From positions 15,740-79,739 of the forward strand of contig JBAZTR010000001.1 of NCBI GenBank assembly GCA_041661745.1: DNA of 64,000 nucleotides, read 5' to 3'. Shown here in pieces: positions 6,866 through 18,514 of the stretch. Below the pieces are notes generated by a model. The model saw only the letters and a list, made by a program, of their open reading frames with translations. It did no database searches and was not told the DNA's origin. Each line of letters begins with the position of its first letter. Position 1 is the stretch's first letter. Source of the DNA: Patescibacteria group bacterium. GTDB taxonomy: Bacteria > Patescibacteriota > Patescibacteriia > UBA9934 > GWF2-40-263. Both the position numbers and the translations under genes were made by a program.

Positions 6866-9310
6866 ATGAAGTATCGCGGTTTAACTTCCAACGAAGCCAA
6901 AAAAAATAAAGGGCGTTTTGGTGCTAATGTTTTACCGGAAGAAAAATTTGCTTCTGGTTTATCGATGTTTTTATCACAGTTTGCCAACCCATTAGTTTAT
7001 GTTTTGCTGGCGATTGGGGTTGTTTCGCTTATTGCCCAAAAACCCAGTGACGCAATTTTTATTTTTTTGGTGGTTTTTTTAAATTCAATTTTTGGTTTTA
7101 CTCAAGAATATAAAACTCAAAGAACTTTAATTGCCTTAAAGCGTATTGTTAAACCAAAAGCTCGAGTTATCCGTGATGGTCTGCGTCAAGAAATCGAGGC
7201 AATTGATTTGGTTCCAGGAGATGTTGTTCTTTTGGGGATTGGCGATCGCGTGCCGGCCGACGGGGCGATTCTGGAAGCCTCGTCTTTTTTTGCCGATGAA
7301 GCCATTTTAACCGGTGAAAGTGAGTCAATGGAAAAAAAGAAAGATGATTTGGTTTTTATGGGGACGATTGTAGCCTGGGGTACGGCGGTCATACAGATTA
7401 AAAAAACCGGCGCGGGCACCAAGATCGGCGAAATTGCCAAAATTATAAAAGAAACCATCCCCCTGCCGACAATTTTACAAGTCCGCCTTAAAAAATTGGT
7501 GCGAGGCATTATTTTTATTGGATTTTTTCTGTGTACTTTGGCACTTATCGTCGGTCTTTATGTTGGTTATGATTTTTGGGAAATCTTTGAAATCATTGCT
7601 GTTTTACTCGCAGCTATTTTGCCCGAAGCTTTGACCATTGCCGTGACGCTTATTTTGGTTTTGGCCATGCAAAAAATGCTTAAACGTAAAGCTTTAGTTA
7701 GAAAACTTTTAGCCGTGGAAACTTTAGGTTCGGTTTCGACCATCTGCATCGATAAAACCGGAACTTTAACCGAAGGAAAGATGCGGGTGACTAAAACCGA
7801 TTTCACCGATCATACTCGAGCCCTGACAACCCTGTGTCTTTGTAATAACCTTTCCAACCCAACCGAGCTGGCTTTGTGGGATTTTCTTTCAGAGCAAAAA
7901 AACTTTTTATCCCAAGAAATTTTCGATAGCCATACTAGATTTTTTGAAGTGCCTTTTAGTGGTCAACATAAATTTATGGCTACGGCCAATTGTCCGCCGC
8001 TCGGCGACGATTGTGCTTTGTATGTTAAGGGCGCCCCGGAAATCGTGGCGGCCATGTGTGGACTGTCGGCCGGTGAAACTAAAAAGATTTTGCAAAAAGT
8101 CGAGCGTTGGGGCAAAGACGGTCTGCGAATTTTGGCTTTGGCCGCCTGTCCCATTTCCAAAGATTCTGTCAAAAAGTTGGGAATAAAATCAATTCCTAAA
8201 CTTGAATGGCTAGGCTTAGTCGCATTATGGGATCCACCGCGAAAAGAGGTAAGGGAAACCCTGGCTATAGCCAGCCAGGCCGGCATTAAAATTAAAGTCA
8301 TTACCGGCGACTATCGTTATACGGCGGAAAAAATAATGAGCTTTTTGGGTTTTGAAATTAAAGCCGGCGGCCTGATAGAAGGTCATGAATTGGAAAGACT
8401 GTCTGATAAAGATTTAAAAGTCCGAGTAACTGATGCAGTTTTATTTACTCGGGTTACGCCGGAGCAAAAATTAAGAATAGTCTCGGCTTTACAGGAACTT
8501 GGTGAGGTGGTGGCCATGACTGGCGACGGCGTTAATGACGCTCCAGCTCTTAAAAAAGCCGATATTGGCATTGTTGTTGGCGAGGCTTCGGAAGTTGCCA
8601 AAGAAACCGCCGACATAACTTTGCTCGACAGTAATTTTAAAACCATTGTCGCCGCGGTCGAAGAGGGAAGAGTGGTTTTTGAAAATATTCGCAAGACGGT
8701 TTTTTACATGATGGCCGATTCTTTTTCGGAAATTTCTCTAATTTTAGGTTCGCTCCTACTTGGTTGGCCGTTGCCGCTTTCGGTTCTACAGATTCTTTGG
8801 ATCAATTTAATTTGTGATGGCCCACAAGATATTTTACTTGGTCTAGAACCCAAGGAACGCGAAATTATGGCCGAAGGCCCCAAACGGATAAATGATAAAA
8901 TTCTTAATCGTTTCCATTTTTTTCTAATTATCGTTATCTCTCTACTGGTGGCCGGCTCGGCTCTTTTGTTGTTCTGGTACTTTGGTTTATACCTAGGTGA
9001 TTTGCGTCTGGGTCGCACAATGTCATTCATGATGGTGGTATTGTCTTCAATTCTTTTGGTTATTCCGGTCAGAAGCTTCCGAAAACCTTTTTGGCGTTAC
9101 GAAAACTTTTGGGCCAATCCTTGGCTTTTGATAATCATGTGTTTCAACGCGATTCTTCAGGTCACTATTATTTATCTTCCCATCACACAAAGAATTTTTG
9201 AGCTTCAAGCCCTGCAACTTACCCATTGGATAATTTTATTTTCCTTCGTGGCCATGACAATATTGATTGTTGAAGCAATAAAATGGATGCGCCCGCGGAA
9301 GGTTTGGTAA
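6866..9310 (+). CDS. cation-transporting P-type ATPase (P2-type, Ca2+/Mg2+-like)
   Basis: Phosphorylation motif ICIDKTGTLTEG, hinge motif MTGDGVNDAPALKKADIGI and 814 aa with multiple TM helices at both ends. Confidence 0.9.
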   Translation: MKYRGLTSNEAKKNKGRFGANVLPEEKFASGLSMFLSQFANPLVYVLLAIGVVSLIAQKPSDAIFIFLVVFLNSIFGFTQEYKTQRTLIALKRIVKPKARVIRDGLRQEIEAIDLVPGDVVLLGIGDRVPADGAILEASSFFADEAILTGESESMEKKKDDLVFMGTIVAWGTAVIQIKKTGAGTKIGEIAKIIKETIPLPTILQVRLKKLVRGIIFIGFFLCTLALIVGLYVGYDFWEIFEIIAVLLAAILPEALTIAVTLILVLAMQKMLKRKALVRKLLAVETLGSVSTICIDKTGTLTEGKMRVTKTDFTDHTRALTTLCLCNNLSNPTELALWDFLSEQKNFLSQEIFDSHTRFFEVPFSGQHKFMATANCPPLGDDCALYVKGAPEIVAAMCGLSAGETKKILQKVERWGKDGLRILALAACPISKDSVKKLGIKSIPKLEWLGLVALWDPPRKEVRETLAIASQAGIKIKVITGDYRYTAEKIMSFLGFEIKAGGLIEGHELERLSDKDLKVRVTDAVLFTRVTPEQKLRIVSALQELGEVVAMTGDGVNDAPALKKADIGIVVGEASEVAKETADITLLDSNFKTIVAAVEEGRVVFENIRKTVFYMMADSFSEISLILGSLLLGWPLPLSVLQILWINLICDGPQDILLGLEPKEREIMAEGPKRINDKILNRFHFFLIIVISLLVAGSALLLFWYFGLYLGDLRLGRTMSFMMVVLSSILLVIPVRSFRKPFWRYENFWANPWLLIIMCFNAILQVTIIYLPITQRIFELQALQLTHWIILFSFVAMTILIVEAIKWMRPRKVW

Positions 9311-9327
9311 AATAAAATAAAAACAAA

Positions 9328-9357
9328 ATCCGGCCGGGTTTAGCGGTCGGATTTTTA
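9328..9357. terminator. bidirectional terminator between convergent genes
   Basis: aatccggccgggtttagcggtcggattttt forms a GC hairpin flanked by an A-run and a T-run. Confidence 0.5.
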
Positions 9358-9360
9358 AAT

Positions 9361-9978
9361 TTACTTTTTCTTTTTTGCGGCAACTTTTTTGGTTGCGACT
9401 TTGGCCTTGGCTTTGGTTTTCTTTTCCTCGACGACTTCCGGCTTTTCAATCTTTTCAATTTTCTCAACCGCTTCTTCCACTGCGGACGGGGCCAGAATTT
9501 TTAGAAGCTTATCAATTTTTGCATTTAAAATTTTAAATTGATCCATCAGCTCACCGGAATTCCTCTGCGGTTTTTCAACATTACTGGCACTGCGATCAAA
9601 GCAAGCTTCGCAGAAGATTGGTTTGCCAGCCATTGGTCGGAAGGGAACTTGGCAATCCTTGCCGCACTTGTCGCAAACAGCATCGTGCATTTGGCGCTCT
9701 TCGAAGCGCGGGCGTTCCGGTCGGTCACGACGTTCGCTTTCGAAGCGGTTAGGTCGGCCGCCATCATCACCCTGTTGCTTGGCAAAACAGTTGCTGCAAA
9801 ACACCGGGCGCTCGCCGGTTGGTTTAAAAGGTAATTGACAATCATCACCACATTCGCTGCAAGTAGCTCTAAACATAGCTGGTCGACCACCGTCTCGACC
9901 GCCAAATTTTCTGGGTCCACCAAACCCACCACGATTAAACCCGCCGCCCGGACGCTGAAAAGTTCCCATAATTAACAT
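9361..9978 (-). CDS. double zinc-ribbon protein with RGG-like Gly/Arg N-terminus and lysine-rich C-terminal tail (putative nucleic-acid binding)
   Basis: N-terminus GGGFNRGGFGGPRKFGGRDGGRP. Two CxxC-x17-CxxC units: CSECGDDCQLPFKPTGERPVFCSNCF and CDKCGKDCQVPFRPMAGKPIFCEACF. A coiled-coil segment follows, and the tail is KKTKAKAKVATKKVAAKKKK. Confidence 0.6.
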   Translation of the reverse strand: MLIMGTFQRPGGGFNRGGFGGPRKFGGRDGGRPAMFRATCSECGDDCQLPFKPTGERPVFCSNCFAKQQGDDGGRPNRFESERRDRPERPRFEERQMHDAVCDKCGKDCQVPFRPMAGKPIFCEACFDRSASNVEKPQRNSGELMDQFKILNAKIDKLLKILAPSAVEEAVEKIEKIEKPEVVEEKKTKAKAKVATKKVAAKKKK

Positions 9979-10090
9979 TTAGATTATTTAAGACGGTAAT
10001 AACCTTAGCATTTTTTCCAATTTAAATCAATGGTAAGCGTCCATAACCGGGATGTTATTAGACAGTCTTGCCTTTTTTCGACTGATTCCT

Positions 10091-10096
10091 TATAAT
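10091..10096 (+). promoter_or_regulatory. candidate -10 element (TATAAT) upstream of tRNA-Asn
   Basis: Exact TATAAT about 30 nt upstream of the tRNA 5' end. Confidence 0.35.
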
Positions 10097-10127
10097 ATCC
10101 ACGCGTTCTTTCGAAGATAGTAAACAT

Positions 10128-10202
10128 TCCGGGGTAGCTCAGCGGCAGAGCAGTGGACTGTTAATCCATTGGTCGTGGGTTCGATCCCCACCCCCGGAGC
10201 CA
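10128..10202 (+). tRNA. tRNA-Asn (anticodon GTT)
   Basis: Acceptor stem tccgggg/ccccgga, D-arm tagctcagcggcagagca and anticodon stem gtgga/tccat with loop cuGUUaa. The T-arm is gtgggttcgatccccac, with discriminator G and an encoded CCA. Confidence 0.9.
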
Positions 10203-10317
10203 TGCACCGTACGGTGCATGGCGGAGCCATCAATAAGGTTTTGCTATGTACCAACAGGTGCATGGCGGAGCTATACACCGAATGGTGTCTAGCGGAGCCC
10301 TCACACCATTCGGTGTG
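10203..10317 (+). repeat. array of degenerate tRNA-3'-end-like repeats interleaved with perfect palindromes
   Basis: GGTGCATGGCGGAGC occurs twice (10213-10227 and 10257-10271), followed by AGCGGAGCCC. The GGAGCCA core mimics the tRNA 3' end CCGGAGCCA. Palindromes are catgcaccgt|acggtgcatg, acaccgaatggtgt and cacaccattcggtgtg. Confidence 0.5.
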
Positions 10318-10421
10318 GGGCAAGCCTTTATTGGTTTGTATGGTTTCGCCATGTATCAAAATAACGGTGAACCGCAAAGACCACCAGTGAAAATTGGCGG
10401 TTTTTGTTATACTAAAAATAT

Positions 10422-10679
10422 ATGTTTTATGTTTATATTCTTATTTGTGTCGATAAAAAGTTTTATATTGGTTTTACTTCTGATCTGAAGAAGAGAATTT
10501 TTCAACACAAAAACGGCGAAGTGCTATCTACTAAACCAAGATTGTCGGTTAGATTAGTTTTTTACGAAGCTTATCTTGATAAATATGATGCTCTGCGACG
10601 AGAAAAATATTTGAAGACGGATAAAGGAAAAACAACATTAAAATCAATGCTAAGAGAGTTTTTAAGTAAACAAAAATAG
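10422..10679 (+). CDS. GIY-YIG nuclease superfamily protein (UPF0213/YhbQ-like)
   Basis: MFYVYILICVDKKFYIGFTSDLKKRIFQHKNG... The GIY-YIG motif (YVYIL...FYIGFT...R...H/E) is followed by an 85-aa body. Confidence 0.8.
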   Translation: MFYVYILICVDKKFYIGFTSDLKKRIFQHKNGEVLSTKPRLSVRLVFYEAYLDKYDALRREKYLKTDKGKTTLKSMLREFLSKQK

Positions 10680-10705
10680 CTTCACTTTTTGTTTACACTT
10701 TGTAT

Positions 10706-11119
10706 ATGACCAAAAAAGAAAAGGAGCAGTGTTCCATTGTGAAATTTTTCGACGAACAAGACATCGTCGGGAAAAATTGTTTTGCTTATGCACTTGGTTT
10801 AGATGTTTATCCGAACAAAAATTCCCAGGAGGCGTGGATCGTCCCCAGTTCTGTTGATATCGCAGGCTGGCTTAACGATCTATTAGTGGAGGACTCCTCG
10901 GGTGATATCATTGTTTATTTTGACGCTGATAAGTTGCCTTGTCATATGGGATTGGTGAAGGGTGAATATGTTGAATCAAAATGGAGAGAATCTCACGTTT
11001 ATCGTCATGATATATTCGCTACCCCTTACGGACGAGCTGTAAAGAGATATCGTGTTACTGATTTTGAGCGGCTAAAACTCGCTTGGAAAGATGAGGTGGA
11101 TTGGATGAAAAATCCTTAA
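10706..11119 (+). CDS. hypothetical protein with Cys...His motif pattern (possible papain-like/NlpC-P60-superfamily hydrolase)
   Basis: The ATG at 10706 is preferred over the TTG at 10700. NCFAYALG (Cys) ... LPCHMGLV ... ESHVYRHD (His residues) are ordered like a permuted papain-fold catalytic set. Weak assignment. Confidence 0.45.
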   Translation: MTKKEKEQCSIVKFFDEQDIVGKNCFAYALGLDVYPNKNSQEAWIVPSSVDIAGWLNDLLVEDSSGDIIVYFDADKLPCHMGLVKGEYVESKWRESHVYRHDIFATPYGRAVKRYRVTDFERLKLAWKDEVDWMKNP

Positions 11120-11217
11120 TAATCGATGAGACCCACGTGCTATCCTGACCCCCTGAAACAGCCCCCGAATCATTGATCAAAGGCGAGTTCTGTACCCGTG
11201 TGCGGAGCCAAGAAAAA

Positions 11218-11247
11218 ACATCTATTTATTTAGATGTTTTTTCTTTT
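11218..11247 (+). terminator. rho-independent terminator
   Basis: acatcta-tttatt-tagatgt is followed by TTTTTTCTTTT. Confidence 0.6.
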
Positions 11248-11370
11248 GTGGGGAGCGAACCGGAAGGGGTTTGGGGAAACACGCTGTTTCCCCACCAATA
11301 GCAGAGGAGGGGTGACAGGCCAGCTCATGCTGGCCGCCATAGGGGAACGACGTTCCCCTATGGAATGTGA

Positions 11371-11390
11371 GATCCCCACCCCCGGAGCCA
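11371..11390 (+). repeat. exact 20-bp direct repeat of tRNA-Asn 3' end (att-like)
   Basis: gatccccacccccggagcca is identical to 10183-10202. Confidence 0.7.
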
Positions 11391-11824
11391 AGACTGACAA
11401 ACCGGGCTTAAAGACTCGGATTCTCCTTTATCTTTATCTGCTTATCGATTTTCAGGTTCGAGCGTTGGTTTTTTGCTGTAAGAATACTGTTAATTAAAAT
11501 TGAATATAATTTCTCAGTTATACTAAAAATTGCCACTTTTGACGATGTAATTTGAAAGAGGTAAAATCAACACGAAAATCAAGTAGTAATTTTTGCCATA
11601 CATATAAACATTGATAAATTTTTTACGATTGAATAAGTGACGAGGATTCTAAGAGTAAATATTCGTTCCGCAAATCGCCACATTGGGTCCGACCGCCTTT
11701 AGACGTCCAAACTAGGAGTTTGACCTATCAAACAGTCTAATCTAAACGCTTTTCTTAAAGGTACGGGAATTATCAAACAAAAAAAGAGGTAAATATATAT
11801 TACAGGAAGTTACCAAGAATAGTT

Positions 11825-14800
11825 ATGAAGAATTTAGATTGGGGGAAAATAAATAATGATAGGGATTTTCAACGTTTAGTGAACGATCTTTTTGCATTGG
11901 AAATTAACCACCCTGCTTTTCTTTCAAGCAATCCAGAGATAGGGGCAGATGGTGGTTGGGACGGACGTTATAGCGGATCATACATGGGCCTTAGCGGTGT
12001 TTGGGATTTCCAAGCGAAATGGACTAAACATAATCTTGATGCAGCTTATAAGCAATTACACACGGAGATTAAAAATGAGTTGGAAAAAGCGAAGAAGAAC
12101 AAAGTACAATTTTTATTAGTTGCAACAAACGCTGATTTAAGAATCGGCACTAACGATCATGTCGGTAAACTTGAGAAACTAAATGAGAACAAAAAATTTG
12201 TCGACCAGTTATTTATTTGGCCACGAGCCAACTTAGAAAGTAAAATAACCCAATATCCGCTGTTAAGGCATAACTACTTTGGCGATCCCCAAGAGCCGAC
12301 ATTCGTCCCAGCTCATGTATTTGCAGAATCAGAGCCGCTTCTTAAGGGAGTTTTTGTCGGACGAAAAGAACCAGTAAGTGTTTTAAAGGGATTTATACAA
12401 AAAGATACATCCAATCTCCTCATTATTCATTCTGGAGGTGGCTATGGAAAAACACATTTTATTGTAGAATCTGGAAAAAGTGGAGATTCTCTATGGCCAG
12501 GTGTTCAAACGTGGTTTTGTCGACCTGGAATTAGAGATATTAACGAAGCTATCAATGAGTTAGACCATGAAAAGGATTGCTTAATATTTCTAGATGATGC
12601 TGAAAGATATTTGGATGATGCAAAAAAACTAATTGCTCACATCAAGACATTTTCTCCTGGAAAATTAAAGGTTATATTGTCTTGCCGCAGCTCAGGCAAA
12701 GAAATTGTCAAAAATTTAGCGGATTCGCAAAGGGTGGATAATTATAATTTGCTTGAGTTACCTCATCTTTCCGAAAAGGAACTTGTAGAAATTTTAAATC
12801 TCGCGGCGGATTCAAAAAAGATTGATCATCCAGAAAGAATTGTAAAAGAACTAAACGGAAATCTGTTTTTGATAATCACGACAGGGAAGCTTATTAAAGG
12901 TGGCGACTTAAACCCAGGCCAGGTTAAAAAGCATATCAAAAATAATTTAGATCAAGAAACCGTCAATGCACTTAAGGATGTACTAGACGAACGTAATTCA
13001 AAGGCTTTTTTAAAAGAGCTATCTATTATTGTTCCATTTTCAAAAGAAAAGCGTGGGAATAACGTGCTTGATAAATTGGCAGCCGTTTTGGAATTAAAAG
13101 TAAATTTAATAAACGAAGCTCTGAATAAACTTATTGAGGCAAAAATTCTTCGTGTTGTTGGCGCCTCGGTAAGATTTAATCCTGATATGAAAGGCGATAT
13201 TTATCTTTCTGTAGAATTAGATAAAGAAAATGGGAAAGATTTAGCGAACAAAATGTTTGAGAATTGGTTACCTATTTTTCCTAAACAACTCACAGCAAAC
13301 CTGGCCGCTGCATCTAGACATAAAGATACGAATTCGGCGAACGAAGCCGTGAAGGAACTTTTCCAAAAATGGATTAATGAAACATCTGAGACTTCCGATT
13401 CATTTAAATCTAAAAGATTAGAACTCGCTGCTTCTATTGCTTTTTTAGCCCCTGAAGAGGCAATCGGTTTGGTTTATGCTTATGTAAATTCATCGAATAC
13501 GCAGAATTCATATGGACTAAATCGAGATACTTATGGGCCAGTCATTTACCATGTTTTGCACGTACCTGGATTTGAAAAAGCAATATTAAAATTGATTCTT
13601 TATCTTGCCCAGAAAGACCTTAAGGGCACTTACGATAATTACAAGCCCACCAGTCTTATAAAACAAGCGATATCACCCGTTGAAGTAAATATAGCTTCAG
13701 CTACTCAATCACTAAAGGAATTGTTGGATTGGGTTAGCAAAGAAAATTGTACCGAACTCGAAGCAAGGCTTGCTAGCGATGGTGTCTCGGAGTCCCTTTC
13801 TGGATCGCACGAACATAGGGAAAGTTACGGTAACCAAATAACCTTTGGCAGAAGAATTCTGCGTTATGAAGGTATATACAAAAAACCAGTGGATGAATTT
13901 AGAGATGTAGGAATGGATGTCCTGAAAGAGTTGGTTCTTCATTCCAATGACAAGATTAAAAAAATAGGCGTGGAAATTGTTGACGACATCGGTCACGAGG
14001 CAACCTCCACAAGTGATGATCTTTGGAAGAGGATTCTATCCGATAAAACAAAAGCTATTGAATGGTTAGAGAAATTAATTAGCGAAACAAGTTCTCATGA
14101 GGTGCTTAGTTCTATCGAAGACGTTCTTGTTAGATATTGGGCCAATAATAATATTTATTTAGGTTTGAGCGATAAAATTGCTGGCATACTTAGAAATTTT
14201 CCGAGATCAACGGAATACATTATTTTTCGATATTTTGTGGCTCGTGATTTGATTATTTCCGATTTTAAAAAAATAGAGTCTGGGGCTCCCGAGAGCGATA
14301 GATGGTCTTGGCTTGTTCAGAATCACTTTCGACTCCATGATTTTCCACAGGAAGAGTTGGACGAGGTAGTAAAAAGGTTATCTGATAAATATAAAAGCAA
14401 GGCCGAGATTATTAAATACTTATATGAACTCGAGAATGAAGTAAAAGGAATTACTCAATGGCAGACCATTCCTTTAGTTGAGACTTGGTCAAAATTCAAT
14501 AACCAATCATTTATTGAGATCGCAGATGATGAAAGTTTGTTGAATAGTGTTCCTAATAGATTCCATCTCGGAATTTATAGAGTTGCCTCCGATAGGGATA
14601 AACAATACATAGTGAAATATGCTAGCCGAATCCTAGGAGATTTAAATAATCTTCAACGCCAAGCTGTAGACAATCTTTTAGACCTTATAATACGACATAG
14701 TGTTTCTACGACAGAATTTATGCCGTGGATATCTCAGATTATTGAGAAAGCAGACGATTATCTTAAGAATCTTATTCTTCATCGTTCTTATTTTATTTTT

Positions 14801-15682
14801 AAGGACAGGGAGCAAACAGAAAAAAAAAAGGTTGTGAATATTCTTGAACAGTCTTTAAGTGGTGTAGTCAACAGCAACGTATTAGATATGTTCGATTTCC
14901 TAGTTCACAGTGCCATAAATTGGAATTTACCAAGCGATGATTTAGATAAAATTCGCAAAAAATTATTTGAAATAATAAAAGATATCCCTTCGGTAGATTA
15001 TCACACAGACGATCTATTAAAATTTGCACTTAATGGTGATTTGGATAAGTTTATTGAATTGGTTGAATATCGTCTCAAAAAACAGAGTGAATATTTTAAA
15101 AATAGAGGCGCTGAAAAATTTGATGCAATTCCCTTTGACGGTTTTCGTTCGGCCACGGAGTTAATTAAGAACTATGACGATTTCGCAAAATTGATGGATA
15201 AAATTAATTTTTGGCGAAATGAGGAGCTTTTATTCTCCTTCGATATTGATGGATTTTTGGGTAAAAGCATTGGTGGCCATGATAGTGAACACGGCGACTA
15301 TTTGTTGCACTATATTGGTGACAAAATAAAGACTGGAGATGCAGAAAGTTTGAAAATAGCTACTAATGCTTTTTTTGGCATCTCCTTTGGTGTAGATACA
15401 ATTGATTTGTTTTTGAATTTTTTGATGGCAGCTGAAAAAGCAGGAGTGTCAGATGAGGCAAAAGACGTTTTTACCCACCAGGTGATAAGTGGTAGTTATA
15501 GTTCCGCGGTAGGGCAAGCTCCACCCGCATTAGTAAATAAAAAAGAAGCATTAGAAAAAATGAGCGCCAAATGCCAGCCAGGAATTATAAAAAACTATGT
15601 AGATTCTTTAACTGGATCAATCGCTGACGATATAAAAAGACACCTAGATGAAGGTGAGGAACTTATATCGCCAAAATCGTAA
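11825..15682 (+). CDS. Avs-like defence protein: N-terminal Mrr-type PD-(D/E)xK nuclease domain + STAND P-loop NTPase + long alpha-helical C-terminal (putative sensor) region
   Basis: Residues about 30-75 read ...EINHPAFL...IGADGGWDGRY...VWDFQAKW, the Mrr_cat pattern E...GxDGGxDG...QxK. Walker A is IIHSGGGYGKTHF, Walker B CLIFLDDAERY and sensor-like VILSCRS. The remaining roughly 900 aa are helix-rich (L/K/E/D). 1285 aa, about 33% GC. Confidence 0.65.
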   Translation: MKNLDWGKINNDRDFQRLVNDLFALEINHPAFLSSNPEIGADGGWDGRYSGSYMGLSGVWDFQAKWTKHNLDAAYKQLHTEIKNELEKAKKNKVQFLLVATNADLRIGTNDHVGKLEKLNENKKFVDQLFIWPRANLESKITQYPLLRHNYFGDPQEPTFVPAHVFAESEPLLKGVFVGRKEPVSVLKGFIQKDTSNLLIIHSGGGYGKTHFIVESGKSGDSLWPGVQTWFCRPGIRDINEAINELDHEKDCLIFLDDAERYLDDAKKLIAHIKTFSPGKLKVILSCRSSGKEIVKNLADSQRVDNYNLLELPHLSEKELVEILNLAADSKKIDHPERIVKELNGNLFLIITTGKLIKGGDLNPGQVKKHIKNNLDQETVNALKDVLDERNSKAFLKELSIIVPFSKEKRGNNVLDKLAAVLELKVNLINEALNKLIEAKILRVVGASVRFNPDMKGDIYLSVELDKENGKDLANKMFENWLPIFPKQLTANLAAASRHKDTNSANEAVKELFQKWINETSETSDSFKSKRLELAASIAFLAPEEAIGLVYAYVNSSNTQNSYGLNRDTYGPVIYHVLHVPGFEKAILKLILYLAQKDLKGTYDNYKPTSLIKQAISPVEVNIASATQSLKELLDWVSKENCTELEARLASDGVSESLSGSHEHRESYGNQITFGRRILRYEGIYKKPVDEFRDVGMDVLKELVLHSNDKIKKIGVEIVDDIGHEATSTSDDLWKRILSDKTKAIEWLEKLISETSSHEVLSSIEDVLVRYWANNNIYLGLSDKIAGILRNFPRSTEYIIFRYFVARDLIISDFKKIESGAPESDRWSWLVQNHFRLHDFPQEELDEVVKRLSDKYKSKAEIIKYLYELENEVKGITQWQTIPLVETWSKFNNQSFIEIADDESLLNSVPNRFHLGIYRVASDRDKQYIVKYASRILGDLNNLQRQAVDNLLDLIIRHSVSTTEFMPWISQIIEKADDYLKNLILHRSYFIFKDREQTEKKKVVNILEQSLSGVVNSNVLDMFDFLVHSAINWNLPSDDLDKIRKKLFEIIKDIPSVDYHTDDLLKFALNGDLDKFIELVEYRLKKQSEYFKNRGAEKFDAIPFDGFRSATELIKNYDDFAKLMDKINFWRNEELLFSFDIDGFLGKSIGGHDSEHGDYLLHYIGDKIKTGDAESLKIATNAFFGISFGVDTIDLFLNFLMAAEKAGVSDEAKDVFTHQVISGSYSSAVGQAPPALVNKKEALEKMSAKCQPGIIKNYVDSLTGSIADDIKRHLDEGEELISPKS

Positions 15683-15685
15683 AAT

Positions 15686-16555
15686 ATGGCCTTAATAATT
15701 AATAACAGAATATGGGAATTATCTGAAAAGTTATACATACACTGTTATGAAACTGGTGGATTTGTTGATTTTTTAAAATCTAACGGGATTAATTTACCCG
15801 ATAATTTTTATGGTAACTTTGAGGCCTATGCATTCATGAGTACTGAGCAAAATAATTTTTCTCAGTTCATGCAAAGAGTTCCTTCATATAGATATTTAGC
15901 CATTTTAGAGAAAGTAATTTTTGATGAAAAAATAAAAAATACACAGAGAGATAGCTGGAATTATTACGGAACCTATATTAAAAAATGGTATCCAGAATTA
16001 TTAGACGAAGTAAAAAAATCCAATTTTAAACTAGACATTTCGCAAAACAAAATAGAATTATTAGAAGAAGGAATAAGTGGGGTTCAAAATAGTTTAGATT
16101 TTTTACAATATGATTTTAATGATCCATTTTTAGATTACATAAAAAAAGAAATAAATGAGAGCTATAGAGAAGGACTTTATTTAGCCGTGATGATTCTAAC
16201 CAGAAAATTAATAGAATGCATAATTCATAGAGTTTTTGAAATAGTTTTCAGGGAACGGGATGAAAATGGAAAATATATACAGCAAAATCACCAATTATGG
16301 TATGACACAACTAACGGAAGAATTTTAAATCTTGATAAATTGATTGATAATTTAAAAGCAAATTCATTCGCCTTTTATGATTTCAAAGATTTGATTGAGG
16401 ATTTATGTAGTTTAATCAAGGTATTTAAAGACGAAGTAAATAAAATGGTGCATCGTGATTATAAAATACCCAAATTAGAAGACGTCGAGAAAAAAGATAT
16501 TCCTGGATTATGTAATAAATTACGAAGAGTTTATAAAAGATTTTGTAATCCTTAA
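15686..16555 (+). CDS. hypothetical protein, operonic with upstream STAND NTPase (4-nt spacer)
   Basis: 289 aa, AT-rich, K/N/E/D-rich helical protein with no recognisable catalytic motif. Confidence 0.65.
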   Translation: MALIINNRIWELSEKLYIHCYETGGFVDFLKSNGINLPDNFYGNFEAYAFMSTEQNNFSQFMQRVPSYRYLAILEKVIFDEKIKNTQRDSWNYYGTYIKKWYPELLDEVKKSNFKLDISQNKIELLEEGISGVQNSLDFLQYDFNDPFLDYIKKEINESYREGLYLAVMILTRKLIECIIHRVFEIVFRERDENGKYIQQNHQLWYDTTNGRILNLDKLIDNLKANSFAFYDFKDLIEDLCSLIKVFKDEVNKMVHRDYKIPKLEDVEKKDIPGLCNKLRRVYKRFCNP

Positions 16556-16567
16556 TTATTAACAAGA

Positions 16568-17131
16568 ATGGAAAATCGAGCACACAACATAGAACCATTA
16601 GAAAAAAGAATTAATCGTTTTCAAAATGGTCATCCGATAGAAATAATTGAGACGCTTTTAAATTCTATCACTATTTTTTTTAATAACGAAATACGTTTAA
16701 CGATTGAGCGTGACAATTATCAAACCTCTTTGTTATTTCTCGGGATTCATGCTGCAGCACTGACGATAGCCGAGGGATTTTTCGGTAAAAAGGGTCCGGA
16801 TGGATATAAATTATTTTTAGAAAAATTTGTCGACGGGAAAACCCCGGATACCAAATTTTCTTCAATAGCTGAACCGATTCATAATTGGCGAAATATAGTC
16901 GCCCATCAATGGTTAGGTATTGTCGGATACGATATTGAATATGATTATAATTCGGTAAAAGGCTGGGAAAAACGGGACAACACTATTTTTATTAATCCAA
17001 AAATTTATTGTGAACATTATCTTAATGCTTTTTCCTCTAAGGGTAAACTATGGAAATATCAGGATATATTTACCGAAGAAGAACTATATCAGATCAAGGA
17101 TCGGCTTCTTAACAAATTTTTACGACGTTAA
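16568..17131 (+). CDS. hypothetical protein with HEPN-like Rx4H motif
   Basis: 187 aa. ...EPIHNWRNIVAHQWLG contains R-x4-H (R108...H113), the HEPN ribonuclease signature. It starts 13 nt after the upstream gene. Confidence 0.55.
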   Translation: MENRAHNIEPLEKRINRFQNGHPIEIIETLLNSITIFFNNEIRLTIERDNYQTSLLFLGIHAAALTIAEGFFGKKGPDGYKLFLEKFVDGKTPDTKFSSIAEPIHNWRNIVAHQWLGIVGYDIEYDYNSVKGWEKRDNTIFINPKIYCEHYLNAFSSKGKLWKYQDIFTEEELYQIKDRLLNKFLRR

Positions 17132-17237
17132 ACCGGGAACTTTCCTTCCAACATATCCACGGCCGCGTCCAGTTTGTAGGACTTCCAACCGCTTAAACTG
17201 ATAGTTCGAAGTTTTCGCGCCGCCTGGAGCCAACATA

Positions 17238-17268
17238 ATCTCAGTTTTAATAACTGAGATTTTGTTTT
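17238..17268 (+). terminator. rho-independent terminator closing the AT-rich cassette
   Basis: atctcagtt-ttaat-aactgagat is followed by TTTGTTTT. Confidence 0.55.
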
Positions 17269-17314
17269 ACTTAATCAATCGCTTTTTATTTCAAAATAAT
17301 GTAAAGTTTAAAAA

Positions 17315-18514
17315 GTGAAGAATATGAAACGCCGCAATATCTTATTAGTAATCGGCTCGCTTATTTTGCTTGGCGTCGGTGGTTGGTTTGTTGTTCGTCT
17401 CATTATTTCAAATCACCAATCGGCCGAAGAAAAACAGGCTAAGGACGAACTGCAAGCGCAAATCCAGTCAGTCGTTGATGCGCGGCTTGCGGTGCAACTG
17501 AGTGGGGAAGAGACTGATCCTTTTGGTGAGGATGGAATTCTTAGTGTACTTCTGCTTGGTTTGGATTCTCGTTCTGGCAGCACTGTTGGACACTGTGACG
17601 CTATTCAGTTTGTGGAAATAAACAAAACCAATCAGACAGTAAATATTACTGCTGTCCCGCGCGGCACCTACTCGCCTTTGCCGGGCAGCGGTCATTTGCC
17701 TAGTGATTATTATATTTCGAACGCTTGTGAGATTGGTAGTCTTGATTATGGTATAACGCAAATTGAAAAGATTTTGGGACAAAAAGCTGAATATGTGGCC
17801 ATGGTCGGTTTTTCCGAAGCCCTCGGAGCTTTTCGTTTACTTGGTTTGCCGACGACGGAAACTTTGCAATGGCTTCGTCTACGCCAAGGTTACGCCATCG
17901 GTGAACCGCAGCGGGCCCATAATCATTCAACTTTTTTAAAACAACTTTTGGTAAAATTTACTCCGACCGATCCTTCGCAGTTGGATTCAGTTTGGGAATT
18001 TCTTTTGTATCAGCTGGTGGATACCGATCTTTCGTTTAAACAAACCCAAGATATTGTCGCAGTCCTTTCGGCCATGGATTTTGCCAATTATCCGGATCGC
18101 GTTAGTCTTTCCATGAAGCCAGCTTATGCCGTGGCCGAGATCCCTTATGATTCTGAAAATCTTGAGGCGTATTTATCGGCTATGTTGGATCCTATTTCCG
18201 CTGTTATACCTGAGGGCGCTTACACCGGTCTTTCCGAGCTCGAAGAGCAACAGCAGCTTATGGCTTTAATTAACGCCGGTTTGGAAGACACTGATTTTGT
18301 AAAACGTGCCTTTGAACAAAAATTATGGTTGCAGATTGACGACGCCTCAACGCGCGAGTCTGTTCATCTTGCCTTGCTGTCAAAATATCTTGCGGGGCTG
18401 TCGGACGGCGAGGAAATTAAAAAACTTTTGGCTGATTATATAATCGAGATGGAAGCCGGCGGACAAATTGATTGGGCCGCGGCCGGGCGTGAGTTGTTAG
18501 CGCAAGAAATTTAG
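17315..18514 (+). CDS. LytR-CpsA-Psr (LCP) family protein
   Basis: N-terminal TM, then ILSVLLLGLDSRSGSTVGHCDAIQFVEINKTNQTVNITAVPRGTY, matching the LCP core LLG.DSR...D.I....I......SIPRDTY. Confidence 0.8.
   Translation: MKNMKRRNILLVIGSLILLGVGGWFVVRLIISNHQSAEEKQAKDELQAQIQSVVDARLAVQLSGEETDPFGEDGILSVLLLGLDSRSGSTVGHCDAIQFVEINKTNQTVNITAVPRGTYSPLPGSGHLPSDYYISNACEIGSLDYGITQIEKILGQKAEYVAMVGFSEALGAFRLLGLPTTETLQWLRLRQGYAIGEPQRAHNHSTFLKQLLVKFTPTDPSQLDSVWEFLLYQLVDTDLSFKQTQDIVAVLSAMDFANYPDRVSLSMKPAYAVAEIPYDSENLEAYLSAMLDPISAVIPEGAYTGLSELEEQQQLMALINAGLEDTDFVKRAFEQKLWLQIDDASTRESVHLALLSKYLAGLSDGEEIKKLLADYIIEMEAGGQIDWAAAGRELLAQEI

What the first reader, a model, noticed from the sequence alone, without database searches (positions are those of the whole stretch)
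10128..17270. tRNA-Asn as an integration hotspot: exact 20-bp att-like repeat plus several decayed tRNA-3'-end copies, but no integrase
The tRNA 3' end gatccccacccccggagcca (10183-10202) is repeated exactly at 11371-11390. It recurs in degenerate form at about 11176-11205 (GGCGAGTTCTGTACCCGTGTGCGGAGCCA, a recognisably decayed T-arm plus acceptor). Further degenerate copies lie at 10220-10229, 10264-10273 and 10291-10300, and possibly at 17215-17235 (gttttcgcgccgcctggagccaac). This pattern fits serial, tandem accretion of islands at one tRNA, with older att sites decaying. The proximal module (GIY-YIG plus Cys/His protein) has host-like GC. The distal module (the defence cassette) is AT-rich. 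No integrase or recombinase is present, so the islands look immobilised, or the integrase lies outside the cassette or was lost.
Basis: seen in the sequence. Interest (0 to 1): 0.6.

Follow-up and report, generated by a model that had tools for sequence, protein, structure and literature searches.

The report
tRNA-end hairpin repeats with GIY-YIG gene
The repeated pieces of tRNA-Asn are real, and they belong to a recurring, apparently undescribed module: a palindrome that captures the tRNA's CCA end, short copies of the tRNA tail and a tiny GIY-YIG nuclease gene, found behind Asn, Gln and Ser tRNA genes in many uncultured bacteria; the nuclease, not a lost integrase, probably put it there.

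Summary
The exact 20-mer (10183-10202 and 11371-11390) is real and not chance. So is a same-strand cluster of CGGAGCCA copies.

The three "decayed att sites" at 10220-10300 are not decayed att sites. They are 27-nt units: a palindrome that pairs with the tRNA's CCA, then a re-copy of the tRNA's last 5-8 nt.

The same unit follows tRNA-Asn, tRNA-Gln and tRNA-Ser genes in many Patescibacteria and in unrelated contigs of 0.60-0.62 GC. It is absent from neighbouring tRNAs of other isotypes. Often an 80-90-aa UPF0213 GIY-YIG gene lies 34-232 nt downstream on the same strand. This held for 5 of 5 homologues chosen without regard to the motif.

In other genomes a GIY-YIG ORF alone sits between 17-nt direct repeats of a tRNA-Ser 3' end. 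The repeat boundary falls in the T-loop, as it does here.

A relative (L139) has tRNA-Asn with an ordinary trailer that resembles the sequence after the window's distal copy.

Best reading: a nuclease-driven, SegB-like selfish cassette that carries a replacement tRNA 3' end, lying next to older AT-rich cargo. Mobility and cleavage are inferred, not shown.

The parts
10068..10096 (+). Promoter-like site upstream of the tRNA (TTGCCT-17-TATAAT).
   Evidence: Consensus scan, 10 of 12 matches. This is a consensus match only.
10128..10202 (+). tRNA-Asn(GTT) with encoded CCA. Its last 20 nt are the proximal copy of the repeat.
   Evidence: ARAGORN; Rfam RF00005 70.3 bits.
10200..10229 (+). Unit 1. 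A 22-nt perfect palindrome, CCATGCACCGTACGGTGCATGG, whose first three bases are the tRNA's CCA. It is followed by CGGAGCCA, an exact re-copy of the tRNA's last 8 nt.
   Evidence: Sequence; repeat family D1; ssDNA fold z = -3.3. The same design occurs at 29 unique tRNA ends elsewhere.
10247..10300 (+). Units 2 and 3, both diverged: TGTACCAACAGGTGCATGG + CGGAGCTA, and TACACCGAATGGTGTCTAG + CGGAGCCC.
   Evidence: RNA fold of 10195-10335 gives z = -9.3. Stem changes are compensatory across loci.
10344..10413 (+). Conserved leader of the GIY-YIG gene: TTTCGCCA + degenerate hairpin, GGTGAACCGCAAA, a terminator-like stem with a T-run, then TATACT.
   Evidence: 74.8% identity over 408 nt (10266-10669), upstream region included, to the L100 homologue. 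The motif recurs in L012, L085, L100, L120 and L131.
10422..10679 (+). 85-aa stand-alone GIY-YIG nuclease of the UPF0213 family. It is the proposed mobility nuclease.
   Evidence: Pfam PF01541 E = 2.9e-15; PDB 1zg2 E = 2.8e-7; 534 homologues. Homologues lie just 3' of tRNAs.
10739..11119 (+). 126/139-aa ORF, a divergent DUF7689-like protein of unknown role. It is not found in any other GIY-YIG locus examined.
   Evidence: Pfam E = 0.0086, below cut-off. 87 remote relatives, some of which pass DUF7689. No tblastn hit in the loci.
11203..11245 (+). CGGAGCCAAGA (an 8-11-nt copy of the tRNA end plus native-type trailer), followed by a strong terminator hairpin.
   Evidence: ssDNA fold z = -8.3.
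11246..11370 (+). G+C-rich, strongly structured spacer with three long hairpins. GTGGGGA at 11248 can pair with TCCCCAC of the distal copy. Function unknown.
   Evidence: RNA fold z = -5.15; DNA fold z = -5.9. No Rfam match at E <= 1. No similar sequence in any fetched locus.
11371..11390 (+). Distal exact 20-nt copy. It covers the last 4 nt of the T-loop, the T-stem 3' strand, the acceptor 3' strand and GCCA. It is read as the displaced earlier tRNA 3' end.
   Evidence: It is not part of a second tRNA.
11391..11430 (+). Native-type trailer after the distal copy: AGACTGAC..., then a terminator-like hairpin and a T-rich run.
   Evidence: Terminator-like site at 11402-11419. It resembles the L139 trailer AGAAGAACTGACG + terminator.
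11825..17131 (+). AT-rich three-gene cargo of 1285, 289 and 187 aa. The large protein looks STAND-NTPase-like. Read as older inserted cargo; not shown to be a defence system.
   Evidence: GC 0.29-0.37. nSTAND5 E = 1.4e-4, below cut-off. PADLOC and NCBIfam negative.
17225..17272 (+). TGGAGCCAAC plus a terminator hairpin. Possibly the oldest displaced tRNA end. It belongs to a recurrent module seen in related Uhrbacteria-like genomes.
   Evidence: blastn 85-94% to L140 587-634 and 3054-3099 and to L139 5530-5574. ssDNA fold z = -5.1.
17279..18514 (+). Conserved upstream region and LCP-family gene. This is the right-hand host flank.
   Evidence: 17279-17308 is 90% identical to the LCP upstream region of L139 and L140. 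LCP homologues at 76-79% identity.

Best explanation
The repeats mark the insertion of a small selfish cassette that lives at the 3' end of tRNA genes. Its only constant gene is an 80-90-aa stand-alone GIY-YIG (UPF0213) nuclease.

Anatomy. The anatomy is shown here and in other genomes. In order:
1. An intact tRNA.
2. One or more 27-nt units. Each is a palindrome whose outer bases pair the tRNA's CCA with TGG, followed by a re-copy of the tRNA's last 5-8 nt (always CNNNG + CCA).
3. A short leader with its own terminator and promoter.
4. The GIY-YIG ORF.
5. In several loci, a partial second copy of the tRNA 3' end that begins in the T-loop.

Mechanism (inferred):
- The nuclease cuts naive tRNA genes in or near the T-arm or acceptor end, as phage T4 SegB does.
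- Repair copies the cassette from an occupied allele.
- The cassette brings a replacement T-loop-to-CCA segment, so the tRNA stays functional. The old 3' end with its native trailer and terminator is pushed downstream; this is 11371-11430.
- Palindrome units then multiply or are lost by repeated cutting and repair or by slippage.

The AT-rich three-gene block (11391 to about 17200) is older cargo at the same tRNA. It ends at a decayed 'GGAGCCAAC + terminator' next to the LCP gene. How it arrived is unknown.
For: Shown:
1. The 20-mer and the CGGAGCCA cluster are non-random.
2. All five GIY-YIG homologues picked only for contig length have the CCA-palindrome and tail repeat just upstream: P0006, P0007, P0028, P0043 and P0056. 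Four have an intact tRNA (Gln or Ser) directly upstream on the same strand, and one has a tRNA remnant.
3. A hairpin-motif scan of metagenomes gave 29 unique tRNA-linked sites when pooled with the other loci. Of these, 24 repeat the 5 nt before CCA and 19 repeat all 8 nt; the chance of a 5-nt repeat is about 1/1024 per site. Six of the 16 scan sites with at least 400 nt of downstream sequence have a GIY-YIG gene within 400 nt on the same strand.
4. Other tRNAs in the same loci (Arg, Val, Leu, Gly, Ala, Cys, Thr) have ordinary 'CCA + A-rich + terminator' trailers. The module is therefore not a generic host trailer.
5. In L063 (tRNA-Ser GGA) and L098 (tRNA-Ser CGA), a 78-aa GIY-YIG ORF alone lies between 17-nt direct repeats TCCCACCCTCTCCGCCA. 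Flanks and tRNA bodies differ. Identity starts at the T-arm, and the cassette ends are better conserved than the ORF.
6. L086 has a 19/20 distal copy. L100 has 12-nt repeats TATTCGGAGCCA about 1.2 kb apart, a spacing like the window's 1188 bp.
7. Repeat boundaries lie in the T-loop in the window, L063/L098 and L086.
8. Unit number varies between strains that carry the identical nuclease (L013-16 versus L017-18).
9. L139, a relative, has tRNA-Asn with no palindrome and no GIY-YIG gene, and with a native trailer like the one after the window's distal copy.
10. The palindrome is near-identical in 0.40 GC Patescibacteria and in 0.60-0.62 GC contigs. Its stem shows compensatory changes at 6 of 9 pairs.

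Precedent from the literature:
- SegB is a GIY-YIG homing endonuclease in a tRNA cluster. Its 27-bp site contains the conserved T-psi-C stem-loop motif (PMC2330249, abstract).
- SegB drives segmental amplification of tRNA regions and is associated with tRNAs across phages (PMC13096335).
- The I-TevI nuclease domain cleaves at CNNNG (PMC12663268, abstract).
Against: - No cleavage, homing or excision has been shown.
- No orthologous filled and empty pair with exact boundaries was found. Near-identical strains all carry the same arrangement, and the closest relatives are rearranged.
- The protein is only a catalytic domain of about 85 aa, with no DNA-binding domain of the kind that gives SegB or I-TevI their specificity. 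It is not a close SegB relative: only 19 weak phage hits, and the one examined is not near a tRNA.
- Ten of 16 palindrome sites with enough downstream sequence have no GIY-YIG gene nearby. Several GIY-YIG loci lack a distal repeat.
- The two tail classes, CGGAG and CTCCG, are reverse complements of each other. 'Co-variation with tRNA identity' is therefore weaker than it looks.
- The window's inner copy (11203) is more decayed than the outer exact copy, which a simple serial-insertion clock does not predict.
- The hairpin set used for the covariation count was hand-picked.
Confidence: 0.5

Rival explanations
1. Classical tRNA-targeting genomic islands. Tyrosine-integrase elements integrated serially into the T-loop or 3' end of tRNA-Asn, and each left an attR copy. 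The integrase genes were later deleted or act in trans. On this view the GIY-YIG gene is just cargo.
For: - The repeat runs from the T-loop to the CCA. From memory (Williams 2002), this is the usual extent of att identity for T-loop-targeting integrases.
- An unrelated high-GC viral contig carries the same 20-mer within a tRNA-Asn 3' half, beside what looks like the start of an integrase gene (by eye from the sequence).
- There are three 'GGAGCCA + A-rich + terminator' modules.
- The cargo at 11391-17200 is AT-rich.
- L139 has RhuM-containing cargo after its tRNA-Asn.
Against: - No integrase lies in the region or within about 10 kb on either side.
- In L063 and L098 the repeat-bounded unit is about 330 bp and holds only a GIY-YIG ORF.
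- The tandem 27-nt units cannot be att scars of excised islands, because excision restores a single site.
- The same nuclease family recurs at Asn, Gln and Ser tRNAs.
Confidence: 0.2
2. A functional RNA trailer, not a mobile element. The tRNA is transcribed with a roughly 100-200-nt structured trailer. Its first hairpin sequesters the CCA, and its tail copies act in 3' processing, protection or regulation. The GIY-YIG gene is a co-regulated neighbour. The 20-mer copy is part of a second structured RNA (11246-11390).
For: - The hairpin always lies on the tRNA strand and is directly fused to the CCA.
- Stem changes are compensatory.
- The trailer ends in a terminator before the nuclease gene's own promoter.
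- 10195-10335 and 11225-11395 fold far better than shuffles, with z = -9.3 and -5.2.
Against: - It is restricted to tRNAs ending CGGAG-CCA or CTCCG-CCA and absent from neighbouring tRNAs.
- It is absent from the tRNA-Asn of a close relative.
- The palindrome is near-identical across very different genomes, which suggests horizontal spread.
- Unit number varies between strains.
- No Rfam family matches.
- Both C·A and U·G mismatches occur on the tRNA strand, so there is no RNA-strand bias.
Confidence: 0.15
3. By-product of local recombination, with no element at all. Palindrome-stimulated slippage, unequal crossing-over or gene conversion between tRNA genes created the copies. UPF0213 is a host DNA-repair or structure-specific nuclease that happens to be encoded there.
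For: - Identical 27-nt units occur in tandem (L021, 4-5 copies).
- L013-16 and L017-18 differ by a 116-nt unit.
- Partial tRNA-Ser 5' units are duplicated upstream in L150 and L152.
- L013 and L014 share DNA from the tRNA 3' end rightwards but differ to its left.
Against: This does not explain why the same palindrome and the same nuclease family recur at different tRNA isotypes in distant genomes. It also does not explain why the repeats bracket the nuclease ORF exactly.
Confidence: 0.1

Closest known systems
Phage T4 SegB and related free-standing GIY-YIG homing endonuclease genes in tRNA clusters (PMC2330249; PMC13096335)
   Same: Both have a GIY-YIG catalytic domain and a gene embedded among or behind tRNA genes. 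SegB's recognition site includes the conserved T-arm motif, and here the repeat boundaries fall in the T-loop. SegB causes segmental amplification around tRNAs, and here there are tandem units and partial tRNA duplications.
   Different: - SegB is a larger, two-domain phage protein. The protein here is an 85-aa catalytic domain only, chromosomal, in Patescibacteria and other bacteria.
- It belongs to UPF0213 and is not a close SegB relative.
- The CCA-capturing palindrome with a 5-8-nt tail duplication, and the carried replacement tRNA 3' end, are to my knowledge not described for SegB.
tRNA-targeting integrative islands and prophages with tyrosine integrases (for example P4-like islands at asn tRNA genes; from memory)
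   Same: Direct repeats of the tRNA 3' portion flank inserted DNA. The tRNA is kept intact by an element-borne copy. Serial accretion at one tRNA occurs. The same 20-mer is used in a viral contig.
   Different: There is no integrase. The repeat-bounded units can be as small as about 330 bp. A palindrome-plus-tail array lies directly after the CCA.
Small palindromic repeat elements moved in trans (REP/BIME with RAYT; MITEs)
   Same: A short, highly conserved palindrome, often without a nearby protein gene. It is flanked by a short duplication, occurs in tandem clusters, and is found in distant genomes.
   Different: The associated protein is a GIY-YIG nuclease, not an HUH or DDE transposase. 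Insertion is confined to the CNNNG-CCA ends of particular tRNAs. The 22-nt size is far smaller than that of MITEs.
I-TevI nuclease domain (CNNNG cleavage motif; PMC12663268, PMC4065259)
   Same: Both are small GIY-YIG catalytic domains. The duplicated pentamer here is always CNNNG (CGGAG, CTCCG, CCCCG, CGGGG).
   Different: I-TevI leaves 2-nt 3' overhangs, which would not by itself give a 5- or 8-nt duplication. CNNNG here may simply reflect C-N3 of the acceptor stem plus a G discriminator.
UPF0213 proteins BH0048 and EF2693 (PDB 1zg2, 1ywl)
   Same: Direct sequence relatives (E = 2.8e-7 and 3.5e-5), with the same size and fold family.
   Different: These are structural-genomics entries with no assigned function. 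No link to tRNA genes is recorded in what I could search.

Membership tests
Tyrosine-integrase genomic island at a tRNA | Integrase or recombinase gene within or next to the island. | tested here: not met
   Pfam on all ORFs of 10422-17131. Precomputed Pfam for about 10 kb on both sides.
Tyrosine-integrase genomic island at a tRNA | Direct repeat of the tRNA 3' part bounding the inserted DNA. | tested here: met
   Exact 20-mer at 10183-10202 and 11371-11390.
Tyrosine-integrase genomic island at a tRNA | Empty site in related genomes with matching boundaries. | tested here: inconclusive
   L139 has tRNA-Asn with a native trailer and other cargo. L120 has tRNA-Asn about 290 nt from an LCP homologue (54% identity). 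The closest relatives are rearranged, so there is no exact empty site.
Free-standing GIY-YIG homing endonuclease gene (Seg-like) | GIY-YIG catalytic domain. | tested here: met
   PF01541, 56.8 bits against a cut-off of 22.6.
Free-standing GIY-YIG homing endonuclease gene (Seg-like) | Separate DNA-binding domain that gives site specificity. | tested here: not met
   The protein is 85 aa and Pfam residues 1-70 are the catalytic domain. NCBIfam grpIintron_endo scores only 23.9 bits against a cut-off of 56.
Free-standing GIY-YIG homing endonuclease gene (Seg-like) | Gene sits beside its conserved target gene, with presence/absence among relatives. | tested here: inconclusive
   Always just 3' of tRNA-Asn, -Gln or -Ser. 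L139, L120 and L131 lack the gene at comparable tRNAs. Orthology of these sites is not established.
Free-standing GIY-YIG homing endonuclease gene (Seg-like) | Site-specific cleavage of the allele that lacks the gene, and preferential inheritance. | not testable with these tools
   This needs a biochemical and genetic assay.
UPF0213 / COG2827-type small GIY-YIG proteins | Sequence similarity over the whole short protein to family members. | tested here: met
   PDB 1zg2 'UPF0213 protein BH0048', E = 2.8e-7, residues 2-65. 534 homologues, most 82-100 aa.
Palindromic repeat element with trans-acting transposase (REP/RAYT, MITE) | Conserved palindrome with a flanking short duplication, at many sites. 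| tested here: met
   24 of 29 unique tRNA-linked sites repeat the flanking pentamer. Non-tRNA sites L100, L132 and L056 do so as well.
Palindromic repeat element with trans-acting transposase (REP/RAYT, MITE) | Cognate HUH or DDE transposase. | tested here: not met
   None in the window region or in the loci examined. Only GIY-YIG genes recur.
Known structured RNA family (Rfam) | Match to a curated covariance model for the trailer or for the 11246-11390 segment. | tested here: not met
   Only the tRNA itself matched at E <= 1 in 9000-18500. Only tRNAs matched in eight related loci.

The most novel reading that the evidence does not exclude
A previously unrecognised minimal mobile system with two parts:
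- A 22-bp perfect palindrome (CCATGCACCGTACGGTGCATGG and co-varying relatives). It inserts between the CNNNG acceptor end and the CCA of tRNA genes, duplicates the pentamer, and supplies a new CCA so that the tRNA survives.
- An 85-aa stand-alone UPF0213 GIY-YIG nuclease that mobilises the palindrome in cis or in trans. The nuclease's own gene rides behind the palindrome together with a replacement T-loop-to-CCA segment.

The pair would spread across phyla. This would give a first function to the UPF0213 family.
Probability: 0.22. Interest if true: 0.85.

Novelty: new variant of a known kind. Interest (0 to 1): 0.66.

Why it matters
- UPF0213 is a very common small bacterial protein family. 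Structures have been solved, but I could find no assigned function. A consistent genomic link to tRNA 3' ends gives it a directly testable role.
- If the cassette is nuclease-driven, tRNA genes in bacterial chromosomes are colonised by homing-type elements as well as by integrase islands. These elements would preserve the tRNA by carrying a spare 3' end. This would extend the SegB paradigm from phages to the streamlined genomes of Patescibacteria.
- The conserved palindrome also breaks assemblies and can be misread as att scars, which matters for genomic-island prediction.
- A naturally minimal, possibly structure- or CNNNG-directed GIY-YIG nuclease could interest people who build Tev-type genome editors.

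Tried and rejected
1. Synteny through the P-type ATPase in species-representative genomes. Only 50-57% identical relatives turned up, with no tRNA-Asn nearby. This used the single genome-contig scan.
2. Exact-protein look-ups of the flanking genes. They returned the source contig and Logan contigs that break inside the tRNA (window 10177) or inside a hairpin (window 11343). The breaks are assembly-graph effects, not polymorphism.
3. Empty-site search through LCP homologues (76-79% identity). The neighbourhoods are rearranged and no tRNA lies next to LCP. Only the more distant L120 has tRNA-Asn next to an LCP gene.
4. A second tRNA, tmRNA or known RNA as the explanation of the distal copy. Rejected by ARAGORN and Rfam.
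5. A decayed T-arm at 11182-11210 and at 17203-17232. The alignment scores are not significant.
6. A possible far attR at 60019-60036 (17/18 match). It lies inside a continuous 2923-aa ORF, so it was set aside as probable chance.
7. PADLOC and NCBIfam on the 'defence' genes gave nothing significant.
8. The 139-aa ORF. The word-index search found only itself. The single-sequence AlphaFold model had pLDDT 39, so no fold search was made. Remote relatives point only to DUF7689.
9. Phage database search for the nuclease. Only weak hits, and the one examined is not tRNA-linked.
10. Literature searches for GIY-YIG with tRNA in CPR bacteria, and for YhbQ and UPF0213. No description of this module was found.

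Full report
**Check of the observation**

The window holds one tRNA gene, tRNA-Asn(GTT), at 10128-10202 on the + strand (Rfam 70.3 bits). Its last 20 nt, GATCCCCACCCCCGGAGCCA, recur exactly at 11371-11390. With up to three mismatches allowed there are only these two sites, and none in 100 shuffles.

The 8-mer CGGAGCCA occurs four times in the 64 kb. All four are on the + strand, at 10195, 10222, 11203 and 11383. One-mismatch copies lie at 10266 and 10293. Given the first copy, three more within 1.2 kb on one strand has a probability of roughly 1e-6 (my estimate from base frequencies).

- The 'decayed T-arm' string lies at 11182-11210, about 5 nt off the stated coordinates. Outside the CGGAGCCA core it resembles the tRNA no more than the 95th-99th percentile of random windows.
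- TGGAGCCA at 17225 is one of about 70 one-mismatch hits.

No integrase is present in the region or within about 10 kb on either side. The GC drop over 11500-17000 is real.

**The tandem copies behind the tRNA**

The sequence after the tRNA reads CGGAGCCA | TGCACCGTACGGTGCATGG | CGGAGCCA. Two diverged repeats of the same 27-nt design follow. CCA + TGCACCGTACGGTGCA + TGG is a perfect 22-nt palindrome, so the tRNA's CCA is the outer part of a hairpin stem.

This is not peculiar to the window. Close homologues (60-80% identity) of the 85-aa GIY-YIG protein encoded at 10422-10679 were looked up in other assemblies. In every case the gene lies just downstream, on the same strand, of the same design:
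- tRNA-Gln(TTG) and tRNA-Gln(CTG) in L013-L018.
- Two tRNA-Ser genes in L019.
- A tRNA remnant in L012.
- tRNA-Ser(CGA) in L142-149 and tRNA-Ser(TGA) in L150-157.

That makes five of five homologues, all chosen only for contig length.

After Asn and Gln tRNAs the re-copied tail is CGGAG(CCA). After Ser tRNAs it is CTCCG(CCA), that is, the tail of that particular tRNA.

**Scan with the hairpin motif**

About a third of them are CCA-fused hairpins at tRNA ends.

After removing duplicates, and pooling with the look-up loci:
- There are 29 unique tRNA-linked sites.
- 24 repeat the pentamer that precedes the CCA, and 19 repeat all eight bases.
- Among the 16 scan sites with at least 400 nt of downstream sequence, six have a GIY-YIG homologue within 400 nt on the same strand.

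Other tRNAs in the very same loci (Arg, Val, Leu, Gly, Ala, Cys, Thr) have ordinary trailers: CCA, an A-rich stretch and a terminator. The module is therefore specific to tRNAs that end in CGGAG-CCA or CTCCG-CCA. One tRNA-Met ending GCCCA-CCA has the hairpin without the repeat.

The palindrome also occurs, nearly unchanged, in contigs of 0.60-0.62 GC that have no GIY-YIG gene nearby. On 20 hairpin units, most of them not selected by the search pattern:
- 90% of the cells pair.
- Six of nine pairs show compensatory changes.
- No shuffle reaches the observed values.
- The set was hand-picked, which is a caveat.

The simplest formal description is this. A 22-bp palindrome is inserted between a CNNNG pentamer and CCA, and the pentamer is duplicated. 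The palindrome's own CCA completes the tRNA. The displaced distal CCA is free to decay, and it is often seen as CCG, CTG or CCC.

One caution applies. CGGAG and CTCCG are reverse complements of each other, so the two classes may be a single double-stranded target read in two orientations.

**What the exact 20-mer is**

Other genomes contain direct analogues:
- In L063 (tRNA-Ser GGA) and L098 (tRNA-Ser CGA) a 78-aa GIY-YIG ORF (41% identical to the window's) lies between the intact tRNA and a 17-nt exact copy of its 3' end, TCCCACCCTCTCCGCCA. The palindrome and the pentamer follow directly.
- The two loci have unrelated flanks and divergent tRNA bodies. Their identity begins at the T-arm. The two ends of the cassette (100% and about 96%) are better conserved than the ORF (about 65-70%).
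- L086 has two GIY-YIG genes followed by a 19/20 copy. L100, whose nuclease is 80% identical to the window's, has 12-nt repeats TATTCGGAGCCA about 1.2 kb apart.

In the window, in L063/L098 and in L086 the repeat begins inside the T-loop.

The distal copy in the window is followed by AGACTGAC, a terminator-like hairpin and a T-rich run. A relative whose LCP protein is 78% identical (L139) has tRNA-Asn with no palindrome and no GIY-YIG gene. Its tRNA is followed by AGAAGAACTGACG and a terminator.

The distal copy with its trailer therefore looks like an earlier, ordinary end of the tRNA gene that was pushed 1.19 kb downstream. The present tRNA end and everything up to 11370 would be the incoming DNA.

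The copy at 11203 (CGGAGCCAAGA plus a strong terminator, z = -8.3) has the same trailer type. It is either an inner boundary or something carried in with the cassette. The 125-nt structured stretch at 11246-11370 (z about -5 to -6) has no relative in Rfam or in any fetched locus and remains unexplained.

**The distal AT-rich block**

The block at 11825-17131 encodes proteins of 1285, 289 and 187 aa.
- Only a sub-threshold nSTAND5 hit was found.
- PADLOC and NCBIfam gave nothing.
- By eye, the N-terminus has a PD-(D/E)xK-like GADGGWDG...QAK motif followed by a Walker A motif. 'Defence' is therefore plausible but not shown.

The right edge of the block is TGGAGCCAAC plus a terminator at 17225-17272. 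This is 85-94% identical to intergenic modules in the related L139 and L140; one of them reads ATTCGGAGCCAAC. Directly after it comes the conserved upstream region of the LCP gene.

In the more distant L120, tRNA-Asn (with palindrome and tail) lies only about 290 nt from an LCP homologue of 54% identity. This fits an ancestral tRNA-Asn to LCP adjacency, with about 7 kb inserted in the window. However, the three closest relatives are rearranged and have no tRNA next to LCP, so the point is suggestive only.

**Most likely mechanism**

Shown:
- The anatomy and its recurrence.
- The specificity for certain tRNA ends.
- The nuclease as the constant, and sometimes the only, gene between the repeats.
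- Unit-number variation between strains carrying identical nucleases.

Inferred:
- The GIY-YIG protein cuts unoccupied tRNA gene ends.
- Repair from an occupied copy transfers the cassette.
- The cassette carries a replacement T-loop-to-CCA segment.
- The palindrome units arise or multiply through cutting and repair or through slippage.

The precedent is phage T4 SegB. It is a GIY-YIG homing endonuclease inside a tRNA cluster, and its 27-bp site contains the conserved T-psi-C stem-loop motif (PMC2330249). It drives segmental amplification of tRNA regions and is associated with tRNAs across phages (PMC13096335). [quoted passage not shown]

Against this reading:
- The protein has only a catalytic domain (PDB relatives 1zg2 and 1ywl, UPF0213, no known function).
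- It is not close to SegB.
- Many palindrome sites lack the gene.
- No filled and empty orthologous pair was found.

I put this explanation at 0.5.

**Rivals**
- A classical integrase island whose integrase was lost (0.2). The T-loop-to-CCA repeat and a viral contig that uses the same 20-mer beside an apparent integrase start speak for it. The 330-bp nuclease-only units and the tandem 27-nt units speak against it. It remains the better guess for how the AT-rich block arrived.
- A functional RNA trailer (0.15).
- Recombination by-products without any element (0.1).
- Chance is excluded.

**Comparison with what is known, and novelty**

The module works like a free-standing homing endonuclease gene at tRNA genes (SegB-like). 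It preserves its host gene the way integrative islands do, by carrying a spare tRNA 3' end.

It fails one defining feature of each family: it has no DNA-binding domain and no integrase. It also adds a feature I could not find described, the CCA-capturing palindrome with tail duplication.

I rate it a new variant of a known kind, with interest 0.66.

Noticed in passing
L139 1048-1672 (relative of the window's organism): The tRNA-Asn of this relative is split in the anticodon loop by a 545-nt group I intron (Rfam RF00028, 80.8 bits, E = 8e-21). The intron carries an HNH endonuclease ORF, and ARAGORN misses the gene. In this lineage the same tRNA therefore hosts two different nuclease-bearing selfish elements: the intron here and the GIY-YIG cassette in the window.
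   Followed up: partly
window 60019-60036, inside ORF 55053-63824: TTGGTCGTGGGTTCGtTC matches the variable-loop and T-arm part of tRNA-Asn at 17 of 18 bases, with CCGGAG 9 nt further on. It lies in frame inside a continuous 2923-aa surface-protein-like ORF. My rough chance estimate is about 0.002. It is probably coincidence, but it is odd.
   Followed up: partly
L150 2690-2840 and L152 2560-2840: Upstream of tRNA-Ser(TGA) there are one (L150) or two (L152) extra tandem units of about 113 nt. Each unit contains the tRNA promoter, the first 15 nt of the tRNA fused to GGTTCCGCCA, and an AAGAA trailer with a hairpin. So partial tRNA duplications also occur on the 5' side of a GIY-YIG-occupied tRNA, and they vary between samples.
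   Followed up: no
L013 versus L014 (3690-8258): The DNA is identical from the tRNA 3' end rightwards (GIY-YIG, hydrolase and further genes, at least 4 kb). The tRNA-Gln anticodons differ (TTG versus CTG) and the left flanks are unrelated. This is either recombination at the shared tRNA-end and palindrome sequence or an assembly chimera at that repeat.
   Followed up: no
window 17233-17272; L140 595-634 and 3062-3099; L139 5535-5574: A terminator hairpin of about 40 nt, AAAATCTCAGTTTTAATAACTGAGATTTTGTTT, recurs at several intergenic sites in related genomes. Each time it is preceded by a GGAGCCAAC-like motif. It behaves like a small dispersed repeat.
   Followed up: partly
window 11825-12500 (N-terminus of the 1285-aa protein): By eye, a PD-(D/E)xK/Mrr-like motif (GADGGWDG ... 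QAK) is followed by a Walker A motif (GGGYGKT) near residue 205. This is the layout of nuclease-STAND antiviral proteins, but no defence-system profile matched.
   Followed up: partly
window 11246-11370: A 125-nt G+C-rich stretch with three long perfect hairpins lies in an otherwise AT-rich intergenic region. It has no homologue in any fetched locus and no Rfam match. Its first bases (GTGGGGA) can pair with the T-stem strand of the distal tRNA copy.
   Followed up: partly
L063 297-330, L098 and L125 (just after the tRNA-Ser CCA): A second hairpin type, CCATCCTACGC...GCTTCGGATGG followed by CGGGCCA or CAGGCCA, accompanies a more distant GIY-YIG clade (41-45% identity). The 'CCA paired with TGG, then a CCA-ending tail' rule thus holds with a different stem sequence.
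   Followed up: no
L002 and L003 (ends at window 10177): Two independent Logan assemblies break at the same base inside tRNA-Asn. This implies another tRNA-Asn variant sharing the 5' 30-mer in those communities. The L160 contig starts inside the hairpin at 11343. These repeats fragment short-read assemblies.
   Followed up: partly
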